Origin: an uncultured virus (IMG/VR IMGVR_UViG_2651870170_000001)
Lineage: Duplodnaviria > Heunggongvirae > Uroviricota > Caudoviricetes
Strand: one strand, 5' to 3'
Virus record (IMG/VR): IMGVR_UViG_2651870170_000001
Length of the DNA stretch: 64,000 nucleotides
Under the pieces are notes generated by a model, which saw only the letters and a program-made list of their open reading frames with translations, did not search any database and was not told the origin of the DNA. A program made the position numbers and the translations under genes. Numbering within the stretch: position 1 is the first letter of the stretch; each line of letters starts with the position of its first letter. This document shows positions 40,004 through 44,556 of the stretch, one piece after another.

Positions 40004-40141
40004 TTAGTTGTAGTTGATGGCGAAATAAATCACGTAGAACCACGAGAACATCCCGTGCAAGATGGCCCACCAGATGCTGTGCCACTTCGCATAGCTCATA
40101 ACGATCGCAAGCACAGAGCCGAAACTGATGCCTTCTTTCAT
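40004..40141 (-). CDS. Small membrane protein (45 aa)
   Basis: Manually translated MKEGISFGSVLAIVMSYAKWHSIWWAILHGMFSWFYVIYFAINYN; GGAGG RBS. Confidence 0.6.
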   Translation of the reverse strand: MKEGISFGSVLAIVMSYAKWHSIWWAILHGMFSWFYVIYFAINYN

Positions 40142-40782
40142 GCCACTTCCTCCAAAAGTTGATTAACTTCCGCCTTCTCAGCTATCCGCTTCTCAAGCCG
40201 TCTAGCTTTCTTCTGCATCACCTTCTTGAGCCGCTTGAGGTAATCGATATCCCACTTGGCTGCCCCTTGCATTGCCTCGATTTCTTCGACGCGGTTGACG
40301 CCGATGCGCTCGATGAGGCCACGGCGGAACTCAACGGACATACCTCCGTAGTCCCTATTACATTGCTTACACTGTCCGCATATTTGCGTAAGGTAGTAGC
40401 GCATGTGCGGGGCGCTTCCTACGCTCCGATAATGCCCAGCGTCCATGCCGCCGCCGTATCGCGCTTTTGGCCGGCCCTCGCACGAGATGCACCCATACCC
40501 AGCCAGTTGATCGCGCAACCGGGCAACCTTGTTCACCGCGACTTGCGCCTCGGCAATCCACTCACGGCGCGTCTTGAGTTTGATGGCGCGCTCTTTCATT
40601 GACTTGCGCTCGACCTTCAGTGCCTTGGCCGCTGACTTTTTCTTTGCCGCATCATTCAAAGCCAGCGCACAGGGAACGCTACAGGCTTTGGACATGCTTG
40701 AGATTGGTGCGAAACTATTTCCGCAATGGCGGCAGCGCTTGGGTTTGAGCGCCTTCTTTACCGGAAGAGCGGTTCTTATCAC
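40138..40782 (-). CDS. ninG: NinG/Rap Holliday-junction endonuclease
   Basis: CISCE, DAGHYRSVGSAPHMRY, QCKQCN, GLIERIG; GTG start with GGAGG RBS. Confidence 0.85.
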   Translation of the reverse strand: MIRTALPVKKALKPKRCRHCGNSFAPISSMSKACSVPCALALNDAAKKKSAAKALKVERKSMKERAIKLKTRREWIAEAQVAVNKVARLRDQLAGYGCISCEGRPKARYGGGMDAGHYRSVGSAPHMRYYLTQICGQCKQCNRDYGGMSVEFRRGLIERIGVNRVEEIEAMQGAAKWDIDYLKRLKKVMQKKARRLEKRIAEKAEVNQLLEEVA

Positions 40783-40994
40783 CGGACCTCCCTGATTGCT
40801 TTCGTCGCCATAACAACACAGGTATCTTCGCCGTCGCACTCGCTCGAAAACCCGTACTCTGTCGATCCAGCCGGAATCCATGCTGGCGCGTCGATGCAAT
40901 GTGCGAGTTGCCAATCGTGATCCTGTGGCCATCCACATGACTTCGAAGCCCATACCGAACCTTGGCCATTCAGATTGACGGTGAGCGTTCTCAT
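40779..40994 (-). CDS. Hypothetical Cys-containing protein
   Basis: ORF overlapping both neighbours. Confidence 0.5.
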   Translation of the reverse strand: MRTLTVNLNGQGSVWASKSCGWPQDHDWQLAHCIDAPAWIPAGSTEYGFSSECDGEDTCVVMATKAIREVR

Positions 40995-41407
40995 GCCACA
41001 CCTCGCGCCATCTCTTCATACCCTTGGTCGGCAGGCTCACTCCACTTCACATCACGCTCAGATCCGAACGCGCTCATCAGCTCCTGCAACTCCGACATTT
41101 CCGCCTTTGTCATCTTGCTTGTCGATTGACCCAGCACAACGAAGCCCCCATCCAGCCCTGGAACCGCGCGTTGCTTTTTGAGTCCCGCAGAGAAGATATG
41201 CTTCCAGTCTTCCGGTGCGAGTTTCAGCCCGTGCCATTCAACTTGGCGCGATATGTCGGTCAGCATTGCCCATAGACGAGCGTTCTGGAGGATCGAACGT
41301 GTCGCAGGCTTCACCTCGACGCAAAATCCGTCTGGCGCGCACTTAATGGCCTCGATGGCTTTTGAGCGAGCGACGGCATGGGACAAAACAAACGCCTGCT
41401 TATCCAT
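40991..41407 (-). CDS. ninB: NinB/Orf recombination protein
   Basis: RSILQNARLWAMLTDISRQVEW, EDWK, GQSTSKM, FGSERDVKW. Confidence 0.9.
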   Translation of the reverse strand: MDKQAFVLSHAVARSKAIEAIKCAPDGFCVEVKPATRSILQNARLWAMLTDISRQVEWHGLKLAPEDWKHIFSAGLKKQRAVPGLDGGFVVLGQSTSKMTKAEMSELQELMSAFGSERDVKWSEPADQGYEEMARGVA

Positions 41408-41918
41408 GTGAATCCTCCGCGGGCCAAACTGCACCCTTAGAAACACGGCAAGCATGAACCTGCGTAATCCCAAATTCCAGAGACAACTCCTTCAGGGATG
41501 CGCCGTTTTCCCTCATCGCCCTTAATCGAGCGGCTGATTCAATGGTGAGCTTTGCCTTGCCGTTCCGCGTTAGCGCCGGCTGTCTGTTCTTCTTTACGCA
41601 GTCTTTGGCGTTGTCGAGATAAGTGCCAAGAAAGAGATGATTTGGATTGACGCATGCAGGCACATCGCAGCGATGACAAATAACCATTCCCTTGGGAATT
41701 TCCCCATTGTGGGCCTCAAATGACCAGCGATGTGCAAAGCCCTGTCTGCCGTTCGCTTTCATAAATCCGTATCCTTGCGCATTGACGGCTCCCATCCATA
41801 TCCAGCAACCACATTCAGGGACGCGCTCAATATTCATTTCGATCCGAACCGAAATTGGCGCCCGGTAAGCAAGTTGCGCGCGACGCAATGGCCCGACTTG
41901 TTTTCTCTTTCCGCCCAT
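41400..41918 (-). CDS. HNH homing endonuclease (HNH_3 type)
   Basis: GCWIWMG, AHRWS, CHRCDVPACVNPNHLFLGTYLDN. Confidence 0.9.
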   Translation of the reverse strand: MGGKRKQVGPLRRAQLAYRAPISVRIEMNIERVPECGCWIWMGAVNAQGYGFMKANGRQGFAHRWSFEAHNGEIPKGMVICHRCDVPACVNPNHLFLGTYLDNAKDCVKKNRQPALTRNGKAKLTIESAARLRAMRENGASLKELSLEFGITQVHACRVSKGAVWPAEDSHG

Positions 41919-42018
41919 CAGTAGTTCCCTCCTCGACCGTCAGGAGCATGTGTGATCGCACGCATTGCCATCTGACGGGCGGTGGGGTGGACTAAACGGA
42001 ATATCTGCTTCGAGTCAC

Positions 42019-42207
42019 TCACTTTTCCTCTCCCAAAACCCGGATCTCAACGGCCGGTCCATCCGTCGCCACAAACTGCGTGAGTGCCTTTTGCTGCAAC
42101 TCGATTGCGAGGCGCTTGAAGCGGTCTAACGAGCAGTGAATCCCGGCATTGCCCATGGCTTCGATAAGCTCAGCCGTGGTGTAACCGATTACTATAGGTG
42201 TGGTCAT
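42019..42207 (-). CDS. Hypothetical protein
   Basis: GGAG RBS, ATGA overlap with methyltransferase. Confidence 0.55.
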   Translation of the reverse strand: MTTPIVIGYTTAELIEAMGNAGIHCSLDRFKRLAIELQQKALTQFVATDGPAVEIRVLGEEK

Positions 42208-43943
42208 GCGATCTCCGCAAACATGTCGGATTGGCGAGAGGCGTCGATGCGCCGCTGTTCAACGCGCTCGTATTCGAACTTGATCCGTGCTTCCGCGATC
42301 GCCACGTATTCCGGCGTCATGTCGATACCGATGAACTTGAAGCCTTCGCGCATTGCCGCTTTGCCTGTGCTGCCCGATCCCATGAAGGGGTCGAGGACGA
42401 TGCCGCCCGGAGGTGTCACCAGGCGGCACAGATAGGCCATAAGGTCGGTTGGCTTGACGGTTGGATGGTGGTTGCCATTGCGCTCTTGCCAATCGGCCGT
42501 TTCGCGATCGCGCATCGTTGCATCGGTCTCGACCGCCGGCGCATCGCTACCGCCGATGCCTTCGTTGCGATCGGTTCGCGATGCTTTGGCACAGTACATA
42601 AATCGGCTACCAGTCGACGGCGCGCAATCCTTCTCCACAACTACCGAGTTCGTCGGCGTGATGCTGAATGTGATGCTCCCGGCAGAGCCATCTAATTCGG
42701 AGTGGCTGGCTGTAATCGTCATGGTGCCGGTCGGCGCCAGGCTTGCCGCAACGCTCACAGGGTTCGGGATCAGGGAATGCCTTCCTTGCGGCAGCGCGAG
42801 CAAGGACGCGTTGCCGAAATGCTGAATCGTCTCGATAACGCGTTCGGCGATCTGCCTTGATTGCTTCGGCGTTACGATCGTAGAAGGTGCCTTCGAGACG
42901 CTTAACCGCCTGCCCACGGGGAGCACCGATATTGCTGCATCGCTTTGAGCAATAGCGTCGGATAGCTTTTGCAGGGACAAATTGGCTGCCGCAGTAAGCG
43001 CAGGCGATAGGGCTTCGAGCCATTCCTCATCCTCCATTTGAACGCAGTAAAAGAAGCGGGCCGCAGATCCTGTATCGAGTCGACGCGCGCCGGGCTTCAT
43101 GGCGAAGTTCGTACTACCTGCATCGGAATAGACGCGATCGACGCTGGGCTCATTCGCACGACCTGCGCGCAGAGAGCCATAGACGTTCTGACTGGCGCGC
43201 GCAGCAGGATTGAGGCTTGCATCCGCCATCTGGCCCGGCGCATCGGGAAATTGCTCGAGTACTTCGGGCGAGCCGTCGTGAATGACGTTGGCTGGCCAGC
43301 GCCCGATATCGCTTGGTTGCCAGTCTTCGGGGCGCTTGTGCATGCGCCAGCCATCGGCTGCAGTAGGGTTGCCGAATGGCTGTGCCTGGCCGGCTATCCG
43401 GCACGCGTCAATATTGATTGCGCCGGTACCGTATGCCTCAACGTTTGCTGCGACGGTACCGATAAGCGGCTTGCGGGCCATGCAAATCGGTTCCGTAGCT
43501 GGCTTGAGCGCGGTTCCCCAGCCTTCCCATTGCCCGTCGAGATTCTTCGATTTCGGGAAACCGCTGCCGTAGTGCCACGGCACCATGTCGCGGATCTCGA
43601 AACCAGCATCCTCGATCGCACAAGTCATGCGGTGATAGGTCCGCGTAGCTGCGAACGCCAGAAGGTGGCCGCCCGGCTTAAGTACGCGCAGGCATTCGGC
43701 CCATAACTCGACGCGGTGCGCAATGTCGCCGCCGTCCCAAACCTTGCCCATGAAACCCTTGTCGCCGATGCGATGGCGCCCATGCGGCATTTCTGGATTG
43801 TTCGTGCGTGCGTGGCCGCCACGGGAAACCTGCGTGAGGTGATAGGGCGGATCGCAGACGACAGAATCCACAGAGGCGTCGTCAAGCGTGCGCAGGACAT
43901 CCATGCAATCGCCAAGGCGAAGTTCGTAAGCGGCGTTCATCAT
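42204..43943 (-). CDS. Beta-class amino (N6A/N4C) DNA methyltransferase with a 151-codon in-frame insertion
   Basis: GDC, VCDPPY (motif IV), GSGFPKS, ALKPATEPI, GRWPAN, HPTVKP, VLDPFMGSGSTG (motif I). Confidence 0.9.
   Translation of the reverse strand: MMNAAYELRLGDCMDVLRTLDDASVDSVVCDPPYHLTQVSRGGHARTNNPEMPHGRHRIGDKGFMGKVWDGGDIAHRVELWAECLRVLKPGGHLLAFAATRTYHRMTCAIEDAGFEIRDMVPWHYGSGFPKSKNLDGQWEGWGTALKPATEPICMARKPLIGTVAANVEAYGTGAINIDACRIAGQAQPFGNPTAADGWRMHKRPEDWQPSDIGRWPANVIHDGSPEVLEQFPDAPGQMADASLNPAARASQNVYGSLRAGRANEPSVDRVYSDAGSTNFAMKPGARRLDTGSAARFFYCVQMEDEEWLEALSPALTAAANLSLQKLSDAIAQSDAAISVLPVGRRLSVSKAPSTIVTPKQSRQIAERVIETIQHFGNASLLALPQGRHSLIPNPVSVAASLAPTGTMTITASHSELDGSAGSITFSITPTNSVVVEKDCAPSTGSRFMYCAKASRTDRNEGIGGSDAPAVETDATMRDRETADWQERNGNHHPTVKPTDLMAYLCRLVTPPGGIVLDPFMGSGSTGKAAMREGFKFIGIDMTPEYVAIAEARIKFEYERVEQRRIDASRQSDMFAEIA
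42591..43058 (-). mobile_element. 453-bp HNH-carrying insertion with degenerate duplicated junctions
   Basis: CGCTTCTTTTACTGC (43044-43058) and CGATTTATGTACTGT (42591-42605), both encoding RF(F/M)YC, 453 bp apart. Confidence 0.7.
42607..43023 (-). CDS. HNH endonuclease nested out of frame inside the methyltransferase
   Basis: GGAGGATGAGGA before ATG; CAYCG...YCSKRC zinc finger; CERCG...HHDDYSQPLRIRWLCREHH..H HNH core. Confidence 0.85.
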   Translation of the reverse strand: MARSPIACAYCGSQFVPAKAIRRYCSKRCSNIGAPRGQAVKRLEGTFYDRNAEAIKADRRTRYRDDSAFRQRVLARAAARKAFPDPEPCERCGKPGADRHHDDYSQPLRIRWLCREHHIQHHADELGSCGEGLRAVDW

Positions 43944-43974
43944 TCCCCCGCCAGCCAGTCGAGTACTTTTGTGG

Positions 43975-44556
43975 TCACGCTGCAATCTCCTCAGGTTCAT
44001 CCCACAGGTTGTGAACCACGCGACCGTTCGCGGCAGTCGGCACCTGAACAAGCCCAAGCGCCGGAGCAAAGGGATTTACCATCGTCGCGCCGGTTTTCCT
44101 GAGGCGCCGGCGGATGCCATATAGCCTTACTTTTTCGGATTGAGACTGGCGGGGAGGGCGAGGCACGTTTTTACCGGGGCCGATTGCGTAGATGGCCGCT
44201 GCACGGCCGCCGCCTCCCTGACGCCAGCCGATGACATGGGTCTTGCCATCCGGGCCGGGGTTTGAAGCGCGGAGATGCCGGTCAATGACCGATTGGGAAA
44301 GCCCGGTACGTCGGGTGATGTCGGACACGGTGCTGGGCAGTCTCTCGATTTCGGCCTTGACCAGATTCCACGCAAATCCCGCAGCACCGCGATCAGAATG
44401 AGCGCGCGGGCCGAGGCCCATCACATCTCGAGCATGCGAGACCGCAGCGTGATAGCTGTGGCGCGGAATCTGGATAAGCTGGCGCTTAAAGTTTTCCGTA
44501 CCAAGCCACGCCTTGCTCAGGATTTCTTCCTCTTCAGGTGTCCAAGCGTTTCTCAT
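43975..44556 (-). CDS. Hypothetical DNA-binding protein
   Basis: WTPEEEEIL start; TVSDITRRTGLSQSVI HTH-like segment. Confidence 0.6.
   Translation of the reverse strand: MRNAWTPEEEEILSKAWLGTENFKRQLIQIPRHSYHAAVSHARDVMGLGPRAHSDRGAAGFAWNLVKAEIERLPSTVSDITRRTGLSQSVIDRHLRASNPGPDGKTHVIGWRQGGGGRAAAIYAIGPGKNVPRPPRQSQSEKVRLYGIRRRLRKTGATMVNPFAPALGLVQVPTAANGRVVHNLWDEPEEIAA

What the first reader, a model, noticed from the sequence alone, without database searches (positions are those of the whole stretch)
42591..43058. Splicing-free homing element: an HNH gene overprinted inside a DNA methyltransferase whose frame stays open
Seen: the motif GSAARFFYC-AKAS, which I recall as contiguous in this methyltransferase family, is split by 453 bp (151 codons). 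The junction is duplicated as RFFYC / RFMYC (10 of 15 nt identical). 417 of the 453 nt form a complete zinc-finger plus HNH gene in another frame on the same strand, with a strong RBS. The methyltransferase frame has no stop across the insert and reads as S/T/A-rich linker-like sequence between motif IV (DPPY) and motif I (DPFMGSG). The Leu codons read in the nested gene are CTC/CTT/TTG, and GTT precedes AAG, choices that avoid TGA in the host frame. There is no intein C-terminal HN and no room for a group I/II intron core. Inference: a further way for a homing endonuclease to live inside a gene. The host tolerates the overprinted peptide as a loop, or the ribosome bypasses between the matched junctions.
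Basis: partly seen in the sequence, partly recalled or inferred. Interest (0 to 1): 0.88.

Follow-up and report, generated by a model that had tools for sequence, protein, structure and literature searches.

The report
Hidden HNH gene inside phage methylase
A selfish DNA-cutting (HNH) gene sits in a shifted reading frame inside a prophage DNA-methylase gene whose own frame stays free of stop codons, an arrangement first published in 2025, so this is a new member of a known kind.

Summary
A PF01555 DNA methyltransferase (minus strand, 42204-43943, 579 aa) has its conserved RFFYCAKAS motif split by 453 nt. Of these, 417 nt are a complete zinc-finger/HNH-like gene (42607-43023) with its own GGAGG Shine-Dalgarno site. 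The methylase frame is the nested frame shifted by +1, and it has no stop across the insert.

In the window alone the open frame is not significant: P(open) is 0.40-0.97 under synonymous shuffles. Across relatives found through the nuclease frame, it is. All 35 viral loci and 55 of 56 further distinct metagenome loci have no stop in the host frame. The one exception is a free-standing relative, which has 3 stops.

I found no Rfam intron match, no conserved RNA structure and no intein domain. The insert is patchy on the methylase tree and, in one pair, much younger than its host genes.

This kind of element is already published as the 'ShiLan domain' and the Pacc40 insert (Arsenault, Gosselin, Gogarten 2025). 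This scan has met it before on other DNA, including this RFF-site family twice. Here it is a different nuclease at a different site in proteobacterial-type phages.

Read-through as a tolerated loop is the best-supported mechanism but is untested. Ribosomal bypass is disfavoured.

The parts
42204..43943 (-). DNA N6/N4 methyltransferase ORF, 579 aa including the insert. Motif IV DPPY is at residues 31-34 and motif I DPFMGSGST at 518-526. The ORF stays open upstream to a TTG at 44069, but homologues start at the ATG at 43943.
43050..43943 (-). Upstream host part, residues 1-298, ending in GSAARFF.
42597..43049 (-). The 453-nt (151-codon) insert, absent from insert-free homologues. Read in the host frame it gives an S/T/A/P-rich peptide with no stop.
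42607..43023 (-). Nested gene for a 138-aa zinc-finger plus HNH-like (His-Me finger) nuclease. The host frame is this frame shifted by +1. Its stop, TAG, is at 42609-42607.
43024..43035 (-). Shine-Dalgarno region GGAGGATGAGGA directly upstream of the nested ATG. An in-frame TGA of the nested frame lies at 43029-43027, so the nuclease is started on its own and is not fused to the methylase.
43044..43058 (-). Upstream junction copy RFFYC. RFF is invariant in all 23 homologues of alignment A2.
42591..42605 (-). Downstream junction copy RFMYC. The RF(x) mimic lies after the nuclease stop, and YC begins the downstream host part.
42204..42596 (-). Downstream host part, residues 450-579 plus the stop: YCAKAS..HPTVKP..DPFMGSGST, the AdoMet-binding domain.

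Best explanation
This is a 453-nt homing-endonuclease cassette that has invaded the conserved RFF|YCAKAS site of a prophage beta-class DNA methyltransferase gene.

The cassette is almost nothing but the nuclease gene: a 26-nt leader holding a Shine-Dalgarno site, a 138-codon Zn-finger/HNH-like ORF, and about 10 nt of tail that repeats the upstream junction as RFx. The nuclease is translated on its own from its own start.

The methyltransferase is translated straight through the cassette in the +1 frame. The product is a 579-aa protein carrying a 151-residue, mostly unstructured insertion at the boundary between the poorly ordered middle region and the C-terminal AdoMet-binding domain. No splicing of RNA or protein is involved.

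Selection removes any nuclease codon choice that would put a stop into the host frame. The +1 relation is the frame in which this costs least, because a stop needs T at nuclease codon position 2.

**Shown:** the insertion and its exact site; homology to phage endonucleases; purifying selection on the nuclease frame; family-wide absence of host-frame stops; patchy, horizontally moving distribution.

**Inferred:** that the long protein is made and still methylates, and that the nuclease cuts empty alleles.
For: **Site.** RFFYCAKAS is contiguous in insert-free homologues. It is split at the same place in the window and in 17 further protein clusters among the 120 best hits listed.

**Nuclease identity.**
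- tblastn finds phage 'endonuclease' genes in 226 records.
- PHROG matches are endonuclease, E=7e-11, and HNH endonuclease, E=1.5e-6.
- The family alignment has invariant CxxC..CxxxC and PCExCG..DRHHDDY..RWLCRxCHxxHH.

**Open host frame, loci found through the nuclease frame.**
- 35 of 35 viral loci have no stop in frame +1 over the nuclease (3 of them cut by contig ends). Frame +2 is open in only 1 of 35.
- 55 of 56 further distinct metagenome loci have none. The exception, L148, is a free-standing relative with 3 stops.
- In the 33 complete copies the expected number of stops per copy is 0.85 (within-gene permutation) or 2.47 (flank codon usage), and the observed number is 0. The median P(open) with flank usage is 0.05.
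- Leu/Val xTG codons before an A-starting codon number 0 of 86, against 94 of 324 elsewhere (Fisher 1.6e-11; the sequences are related, so this overstates).

**Which frame is conserved.** Nuclease-frame identity is 0.57, the host-frame peptide 0.32 and the flanking methylase 0.44 (253 pairs). Nuclease dN/dS is 0.17-0.28.

**Mobility.**
- Insert presence needs 11 changes on the methylase tree, at least 4 of them forced by well-supported branches.
- In the pair L048/L053 the nuclease dS is 0.38 and the flank dS is 1.54.

**No splicing apparatus.**
- Rfam gives 0 matches at E<=10 over 41900-44200.
- RNAalifold on 32 copies gives -0.99 kcal/mol, 8 pairs and 0 compensatory changes.
- Pfam gives no Hint or intein hit on the 621-aa reading.

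**Host gene still looks alive.** Motif I follows in frame in 29 of 33 insert-bearing loci and motif IV precedes in 26 of 33.

**Structure models.** In both AlphaFold2 models confidence is below 50 up to the site and rises right after YCAKAS.

**Same arrangement elsewhere.** Three other lineages (ShiLan, Cr-LKS3, BUCT618) show the same layout and the same +1 frame relation, with P(open) 0.006-0.07 each.
Against: - No expression data exist. No RNA run holds this DNA, so neither read-through nor absence of splicing has been observed.
- The window's own open frame is not significant by itself (P 0.40-0.97).
- The copies are related, so pooled statistics overstate the evidence.
- Homing keeps invading fresh, intact alleles. 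Intact methylase motifs therefore do not prove that the interrupted enzyme works.
- The insertion cuts a nearly invariant motif, which is not an obviously permissive place. AlphaFold2 confidence around both junction copies is below 50, so the models cannot say which copy is used.
- Curated HNH models barely see the nuclease. Pfam HNH matches 1 of 28 members at E=0.053, and the PDB profile search has no hit below E=0.07.
Confidence: 0.8

Rival explanations
1. The insert is removed by a mechanism that the libraries do not hold. Candidates are an unrecognised intron, long-range ribosomal bypass from the Phe codons of RFF to the Phe codon of RFx, or protein-level excision. A near-native 428-aa methylase would then be made.
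For: A junction mimic (RFF.../...RFx) is present in nearly all copies. This resembles matched take-off and landing sites. Absence from Rfam does not exclude a new ribozyme.
Against: A spliced or bypassed segment needs no open frame, yet the frame is open in about 90 of about 90 in-methylase copies. No stop follows the take-off site. The gap is 453 nt, against about 50 nt in the known T4 gene 60 case (recalled). There is no conserved RNA structure and no compensatory pair in 32 copies. There is no Hint domain and no terminal HN. The nuclease ORF fills 92% of the insert.
Confidence: 0.05
2. The interrupted methyltransferase is dead or dispensable. Under this reading, the frame is open because ribosome traffic through the region avoids polarity on downstream nin-region genes, or because copies are young and keep re-invading intact alleles.
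For: Phage methylases are often dispensable, as the 2025 paper argues for ShiLan gp65. The element is mobile. 2 of 33 loci (L036, L062) have N-terminally short host ORFs without DPPY in frame.
Against: Copies are old enough to have diverged to 40-95% nuclease identity, yet none in a methylase has a stop. Motif I follows in frame in 29 of 33. Flanking dN/dS is 0.25-0.30 between insert-bearing pairs. Translation of the nuclease itself already covers most of the insert, so avoiding polarity would not require the host frame.
Confidence: 0.1
3. The host-frame peptide is itself a functional domain, so the region is truly dual-coding and the peptide is not a passive loop.
For: AlphaFold2 places a three-stranded sheet at residues 395-428 with pLDDT about 70. 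The host-frame motifs PTGTxTITAS and SITFSITP recur in 18 proteins.
Against: Those motifs overlie the invariant DRHHDDY..CHxxHH codons of the nuclease, which explains their conservation. Host-frame identity is only 0.32, against 0.57 for the nuclease frame. The rest of the insert has pLDDT below 50. No family matches it.
Confidence: 0.05

Closest known systems
ShiLan domain: hidden out-of-frame HNH insertion in mycobacteriophage DNA methylase gp65. Sources: Gosselin et al. 2023, PMC9957025 (passages read); Arsenault, Gosselin, Gogarten 2025, PMC11855218 (abstract, sections 1, 3, 4 and legends read).
   Same: The host family is the same: PF01555, and gp65 aligns with the window's enzyme. The nested HNH is on the same strand, and the host frame is the nested frame +1. 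The host frame has no stops, no intron or intein is detectable, a junction is duplicated, and the distribution is patchy and mobile. The nuclease carries the same N-terminal CxxCG..RYCSxxCS finger (E=2e-4 over 35 aa).
   Different: The site differs: RFF|YCAKAS here, WGTALKP| there. The nuclease is smaller (138 against 195 aa) and its catalytic core is not detectably similar. The junction mimic lies at the 3' end here and at the 5' end there. The window has a strong Shine-Dalgarno site, whereas the paper reports no RBS. The element occurs in proteobacterial-type prophages and uncultured viral contigs, which the paper does not mention.
Pacc40 gp60 methylase insertion with a hidden HNH-like ORF (same 2025 paper)
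   Same: It is an out-of-frame nuclease ORF inside a methylase with an open host frame.
   Different: It sits in a different methylase family and at a different site. Relatives of that nuclease are free-standing next to the methylase. No sequence comparison was made here.
Inteins, including those with out-of-frame or antisense homing endonucleases (bioRxiv 10.1101/2025.01.02.630785, passages read)
   Same: Both are in-frame insertions at a conserved site of a phage gene. The nuclease may lie in another frame.
   Different: This element has no Hint splicing domain, no C-terminal HN and no Pfam intein hit. The insert is presumably not removed.
Group I intron-encoded HNH homing endonucleases of phages, such as I-HmuI (named in PMC11855218)
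   Same: An HNH homing nuclease gene interrupts a conserved phage gene.
   Different: There is no intron core. Only 36 nt lie outside the ORF, there is no Rfam match and there is no conserved structure. The host frame is open, whereas introns usually bring early stops.
T4 gene 60 translational bypass with MobA, and the mobE split of nrdA in phage Aeh1 (both recalled, not checked here)
   Same: Both are other ways in which a free-standing homing nuclease and an interrupted host gene coexist.
   Different: The bypass gap is about 50 nt and has a stop at the take-off site. mobE splits the gene into two polypeptides. Here there is one continuous ORF.

Membership tests
ShiLan-type hidden out-of-frame nuclease insertion (kind) | The insertion interrupts a conserved site of a phage DNA methylase and is absent from close homologues. 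| tested here: met
ShiLan-type hidden out-of-frame nuclease insertion (kind) | The host reading frame has no stop across the insert, beyond what chance would give. | tested here: met
   At family level: 35 of 35 viral loci and 55 of 56 metagenome loci, with expected 0.85-2.47 stops per copy. The window alone is not significant.
ShiLan-type hidden out-of-frame nuclease insertion (kind) | A complete HNH-type nuclease ORF lies in another frame of the same strand. | tested here: met
ShiLan-type hidden out-of-frame nuclease insertion (kind) | No intron and no intein signature is present. | tested here: met
ShiLan-type hidden out-of-frame nuclease insertion (kind) | The distribution is disjunct, implying horizontal transfer between divergent methylases. 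| tested here: met
   11 changes on the tree, at least 4 of them forced. L048/L053: dS 0.38 in the nuclease against 1.54 in the flanks.
ShiLan domain proper (same element family as in phage ShiLan) | It has the same insertion site and a homologous nuclease. | tested here: not met
   The site differs. Only the N-terminal zinc finger aligns. The Cr-LKS3 nested ORF, by contrast, is 44% identical to the ShiLan ORF over its full length.
HNH / His-Me finger nuclease | It has the sequence motif of the beta-beta-alpha-metal core, with a catalytic His and zinc-binding Cys pairs. | tested here: met
   Invariant PCExCG..DRHHDDY..P..RWLCRxCHxxHH. The window has His in place of the second Cys of CxxC.
HNH / His-Me finger nuclease | It matches curated HNH models or solved HNH structures. 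| tested here: inconclusive
   PHROG HNH endonuclease E=1.5e-6 and endonuclease E=7e-11. Pfam HNH matches 1 of 28 members at E=0.053. The best PDB HNH-like match has E=0.14. Atlas neighbours are endonuclease VII and HNH clusters at 0.90-0.94. The fold was not predicted.
HNH / His-Me finger nuclease | It cleaves the insert-free allele site-specifically. | not testable with these tools
   A bench assay is needed.
Group I / II intron | It has a conserved catalytic RNA core. | tested here: not met
   0 Rfam matches at E<=10. The consensus fold is -0.99 kcal/mol with 0 compensatory pairs.
Intein | It has a Hint domain in the host frame, a C/S/T at the start of the insert, and HN followed by C/S/T at its end. 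| tested here: not met
   No Pfam Hint or intein hit. If the boundary is drawn after RFFY, the insert starts with Cys and Cys follows it. But its last residues are then FMY, with no HN, and the peptide is S/T/A-rich.
Programmed translational bypass (T4 gene 60 type; features recalled) | It has matched take-off and landing codons, a stop right after take-off, a short gap and a conserved stem-loop. | tested here: not met
   Phe codons occur at both junctions. But there is no stop, the gap is 453 nt, and no conserved structure was found.
PF01555 N6/N4 DNA methyltransferase, beta class (host gene) | Motif IV DPPY comes before motif I FxGxG, and the protein matches the family model and solved relatives. 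| tested here: met
   Pfam E=1.9e-31. CcrM 6PBD E=2.4e-22 for the insert-free homologue.

The most novel reading that the evidence does not exclude
The junction mimic is not a scar but part of a mechanism. A fraction of ribosomes (a long hop from the Phe codons of RFF to the Phe codon of RFx), or of proteins, would yield an insert-free methylase, with the open frame serving as a fail-safe. This would be a new route of gene expression across a 453-nt selfish insert.
Probability: 0.03. Interest if true: 0.85.

Novelty: new member of a known kind. Interest (0 to 1): 0.3.

Why it matters
It shows that the 'hidden nuclease in an open host frame' lifestyle, a fourth option beside introns, inteins and free-standing genes, is not a mycobacteriophage oddity. 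The arrangement recurs at a second site of the same methylase family. It is found in about 90 distinct uncultured phage contigs and in a proteobacterial-type prophage, there with a canonical ribosome-binding site.

It also suggests a simple rule. In all four lineages examined the host frame is the nuclease frame +1. That is the frame in which stops need a T at nuclease codon position 2 and are therefore cheap to avoid.

In practice, gene callers annotate these loci as one long methylase and miss the nuclease.

Tried and rejected
- **Expression data.** The look-up of sequencing runs listed no RNA holder for this DNA, so no reads were laid.
- **Close relatives.** 40 related genomes held no close allele of the gene, with or without the insert. 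The window's own genome has one copy of the nuclease and only one other, distant methylase-like match.
- **Genome-contig scan.** The scan with the nuclease returned only 29-residue zinc-finger matches in Bacteroidales (18 loci), which are irrelevant. Six viral loci (L067-L072) were of the same kind and were set aside.
- **Frame labels.** In one search I had the two alternative frames swapped. Its 'frame +1' columns are really frame +2. This was corrected.
- **Insert detection.** A first attempt to score insert presence by alignment columns failed, because MAFFT scattered the inserts. I redid it by cutting the inserts out.
- **Junction copies.** The AlphaFold2 models could not tell which junction copy takes part in the fold. 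Both have pLDDT below 50.
- **Start-site scan.** A regex scan for SD-like cores upstream of the first start codon was positive in only 14 of 33 loci. It is unreliable because the true starts are uncertain.
- **Literature.** The search 'homing endonuclease / alternative reading frame / no stop codons / insertion / phage' from 2024 on gave 0 papers. 'ShiLan domain' gave only the two Gogarten-lab papers.
- **Not seen.** The supplements and GitHub files of PMC11855218 were not seen. They may list further loci.
Full report
**What is there.** The region holds a minus-strand ORF, 42204-43943 (579 aa from the ATG that homologues use; the ORF stays open to a TTG at 44069). It matches Pfam PF01555 (N6/N4 DNA methylase) with E=1.9e-31 in two stretches.

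It lies in a lambdoid nin-type prophage region. NinB (40991-41473), NinG (40138-41040) and a free-standing HNH_3 gene (41400-41918) follow it.

Inside it, on the same strand, is a 138-codon ORF (42607-43023). The sequence GGAGGATGAGGA directly precedes its ATG. A TGA in its own frame lies two codons upstream, so it starts independently. The host frame is the nested frame shifted by +1: nested codon position 2 is host position 1. I first derived this the wrong way round and mislabelled the frames. One search is correct.

**The insertion.** In 4 of 4 phage homologues and in the 94 insert-free homologues of alignment A5, RFFYCAKAS is contiguous and nearly invariant. The window reads GSAARFF-[151 residues]-YCAKAS, and the insert ends in ..GSRFM.

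- RFFYC and RFMYC share 10 of 15 nt.
- 417 of the 453 nt are the nested ORF.
- The insert peptide is 41% S/T/A/P, against 28% elsewhere in the protein.
- The nested Leu codons are CTC x4, CTT and TTG, and GTT precedes AAG.

**The nested protein.**
- By tblastn it resembles phage 'endonuclease' genes: 226 records, 31 of them covering at least 80% of it, at 27-34% identity.
- It matches PHROG endonuclease (E=7e-11) and HNH endonuclease (E=1.5e-6) families.
- An alignment of 28 family members has invariant CxxC..CxxxC and PCExCG..DRHHDDY..P..RWLCRxCHxxHH. For that alignment I left out near-duplicates, copies with uncertain starts and copies cut by contig ends.
- Curated HNH models hardly see it. 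Pfam HNH matches 1 of 28 members at E=0.053, and the best HNH-like PDB match has E=0.14.
- Atlas neighbours are viral endonuclease VII and HNH clusters at 0.90-0.94.

I call it HNH-like (His-Me finger) on motif and PHROG evidence. Its fold was not predicted.

**Is the open host frame more than chance?** For the window alone, no. Only three nested codons with T at position 2 precede an A-starting codon. P(open) is 0.97 under within-gene synonymous permutation and 0.40 with the codon usage of the flanks.

For the family, yes. I ascertained relatives through the nuclease frame, so that open host frames were not pre-selected.
- Of 41 viral loci, 35 carried nuclease-length matches at 53-81% identity. 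The other 6 were zinc-finger-only matches.
- In all 35 the +1 frame has no stop over the nuclease (3 are cut by contig ends). It carries RFF upstream and YCAK or HPTxKP downstream. Frame +2 is open in 1 of 35 and holds 0-20 stops.
- For the 33 complete copies (the window plus 32 loci; L056, L061 and L063 left out), the expected host-frame stops per copy are 0.85 (permutation) or 2.47 (flank usage), and the observed number is 0. The median P(open) with flank usage is 0.05.
- Leu/Val xTG codons before an A-starting codon number 0 of 86, against 94 of 324 elsewhere (Fisher 1.6e-11). The copies are related, so this overstates the case.
- A metagenome scan gave 80 loci. 24 duplicated loci already held, leaving 56 distinct, of which 55 have no host-frame stop.
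- The single exception, L148 (42% identity), is a free-standing gene not inside a methylase. It has 3 stops in that frame, which makes it a natural control.

**Which frame is selected, and is the element mobile?**
- Over the same DNA, nuclease-frame identity averages 0.57, the host-frame peptide 0.32 and the flanking methylase 0.44. This covers 253 pairs from the 23 of 33 loci with long enough flanks.
- Nuclease dN/dS is 0.17-0.28.
- Among the 120 best protein hits, 17 clusters besides the window's own carry the insert at the same site.
- On a tree of 112 methylases with the inserts cut out, insert presence needs 11 changes, at least 4 of them forced by well-supported branches. Shuffled labels need 16.9 on average, and 0 of 500 shuffles were as low.
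- The window's allele sits among insert-free alleles.
- In the pair L048/L053 the nuclease dS is 0.38 while the flank dS is 1.54.

This is the pattern expected of a homing element.

**Splicing or bypass?**
- Rfam finds nothing at E<=10 over 41900-44200.
- RNAalifold on 32 copies with their junctions gives -0.99 kcal/mol, 8 pairs and no compensatory change.
- Pfam finds no Hint domain, and the insert does not end in HN.
- Only 36 nt lie outside the nested ORF.
- No RNA data exist for this DNA, so expression could not be looked at.
- A selected open frame is what read-through needs. Splicing and bypass do not need one.

**Where the insert sits in the protein.** AlphaFold2 models were made for the window's protein (mean pLDDT 62) and for an insert-free homologue (mean pLDDT 65). 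In both, confidence is low (below 50) up to GSAARFF and high from just after YCAKAS. The site therefore lies at the edge of the C-terminal AdoMet domain, which aligns with CcrM 6PBD.

Most of the insert scores below 50. A three-stranded sheet is predicted at residues 395-428 with pLDDT about 70. Neither junction copy is resolved.

Across copies the upstream RFF is invariant. The downstream copy reads R/S-F-x with x variable (M, I, E, N, K, T, F), and it persists whatever the position of the nuclease stop (-1, -7 or -10). Its role is open. It could be a structural patch, a means of disrupting the cleavage site, or a scar of recombination.

**What is known.** The arrangement is published. The 'ShiLan domain' of mycobacteriophage methylase gp65 was described in 2023 (PMC9957025, passages read). 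In 2025 it was shown to hide a 195-aa out-of-frame HNH with an open host frame, no intron or intein, a duplicated junction and a proposed tolerated loop. A second case was reported in Pacc40 gp60. There were no experiments (PMC11855218: abstract, sections 1, 3, 4 and legends read).

I re-derived the 195-aa GTG-started ORF in ShiLan. gp65 is a homologue of the window's enzyme, but the ShiLan insert sits at WGTALKP|, not at RFF|YCAKAS. The two nucleases share only the N-terminal zinc finger.

The paper does not mention Burkholderia, Proteobacteria, Pseudomonas or cyanophages. Its supplements and repository were not seen.

Two phage records annotated as single long methylases carry such elements at or near the ShiLan site:
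- Cr-LKS3 has a nested ORF 44% identical to the ShiLan ORF.
- BUCT618 has a nested 201-aa ORF with no relative in the phage collection at E<=1e-5.

All four lineages use the same +1 frame relation, and the three others have P(open) of 0.006-0.07.

This scan has also met the kind before on other DNA (8 notes). It has met this RFF-site family twice.

**Verdict.** The element is a real, mobile, apparently splicing-free nuclease cassette with a host frame kept open by selection. It is a new member of a published kind: a new site, a different nuclease and a canonical RBS. How, and whether, the interrupted methylase works remains untested.

Noticed in passing
window 41400-41918 (-): A free-standing HNH_3 endonuclease gene of 172 aa (Pfam PF13392, E=9e-14; PHROG endonuclease, E=1e-33). 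It lies two genes downstream of the methylase, between a 62-aa ORF and NinB, so the nin region holds a second homing-type nuclease.
   Followed up: no
L001 1498-3360 (Escherichia phage BUCT618, OM735461): A methylase annotated as one 620-aa CDS holds a same-strand nested 201-aa multi-zinc-finger/HNH ORF (1911-2516) near the ShiLan site. The host frame is open (P(open) about 0.02), and the nested ORF has no relative in the phage collection at E<=1e-5.
   Followed up: partly
L003 1498-3348 (Cylindrospermopsis phage Cr-LKS3, OM373202): This methylase carries a nested 204-aa HNH that is 44% identical over its full length to the ShiLan nested HNH. It sits at the same WGTALKP site, and both flanks are mimicked (ALETVTFASKPY / DAGVKP). 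The ShiLan family thus reaches a cyanophage.
   Followed up: partly
L148 1489-2073: The most distant relative of the nuclease (42% identity) is free-standing and has a C-terminal extension. It has 3 stops in the +1 frame, which makes it a natural control for the open frame of the nested copies.
   Followed up: partly
L036 and L062: Two insert-bearing loci have N-terminally short host ORFs (400 and 364 aa) with no DPPY in frame. This may reflect a second interruption or decay of the methylase.
   Followed up: no
window 42607-43023 (-), nested residues 114-118: The window's nuclease, like that of L032, reads CREHH where 26 of 28 relatives read CRxCH. A presumed zinc ligand has changed from Cys to His.
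   Followed up: no
window 42660-42761 (-), host residues 395-428: AlphaFold2 gives the host-frame peptide a three-stranded sheet at pLDDT about 70. It lies exactly over the DNA that encodes the nuclease's invariant DRHHDDY..CHxxHH motif.
   Followed up: no
L073 816-3698 (phage ShiLan gp65); L001; L003; window: All four nested-nuclease lineages examined share the same frame relation: the host frame is the nuclease frame +1. They also share an N-terminal CxxCG..R(F/Y)CSxxCS finger.
   Followed up: partly
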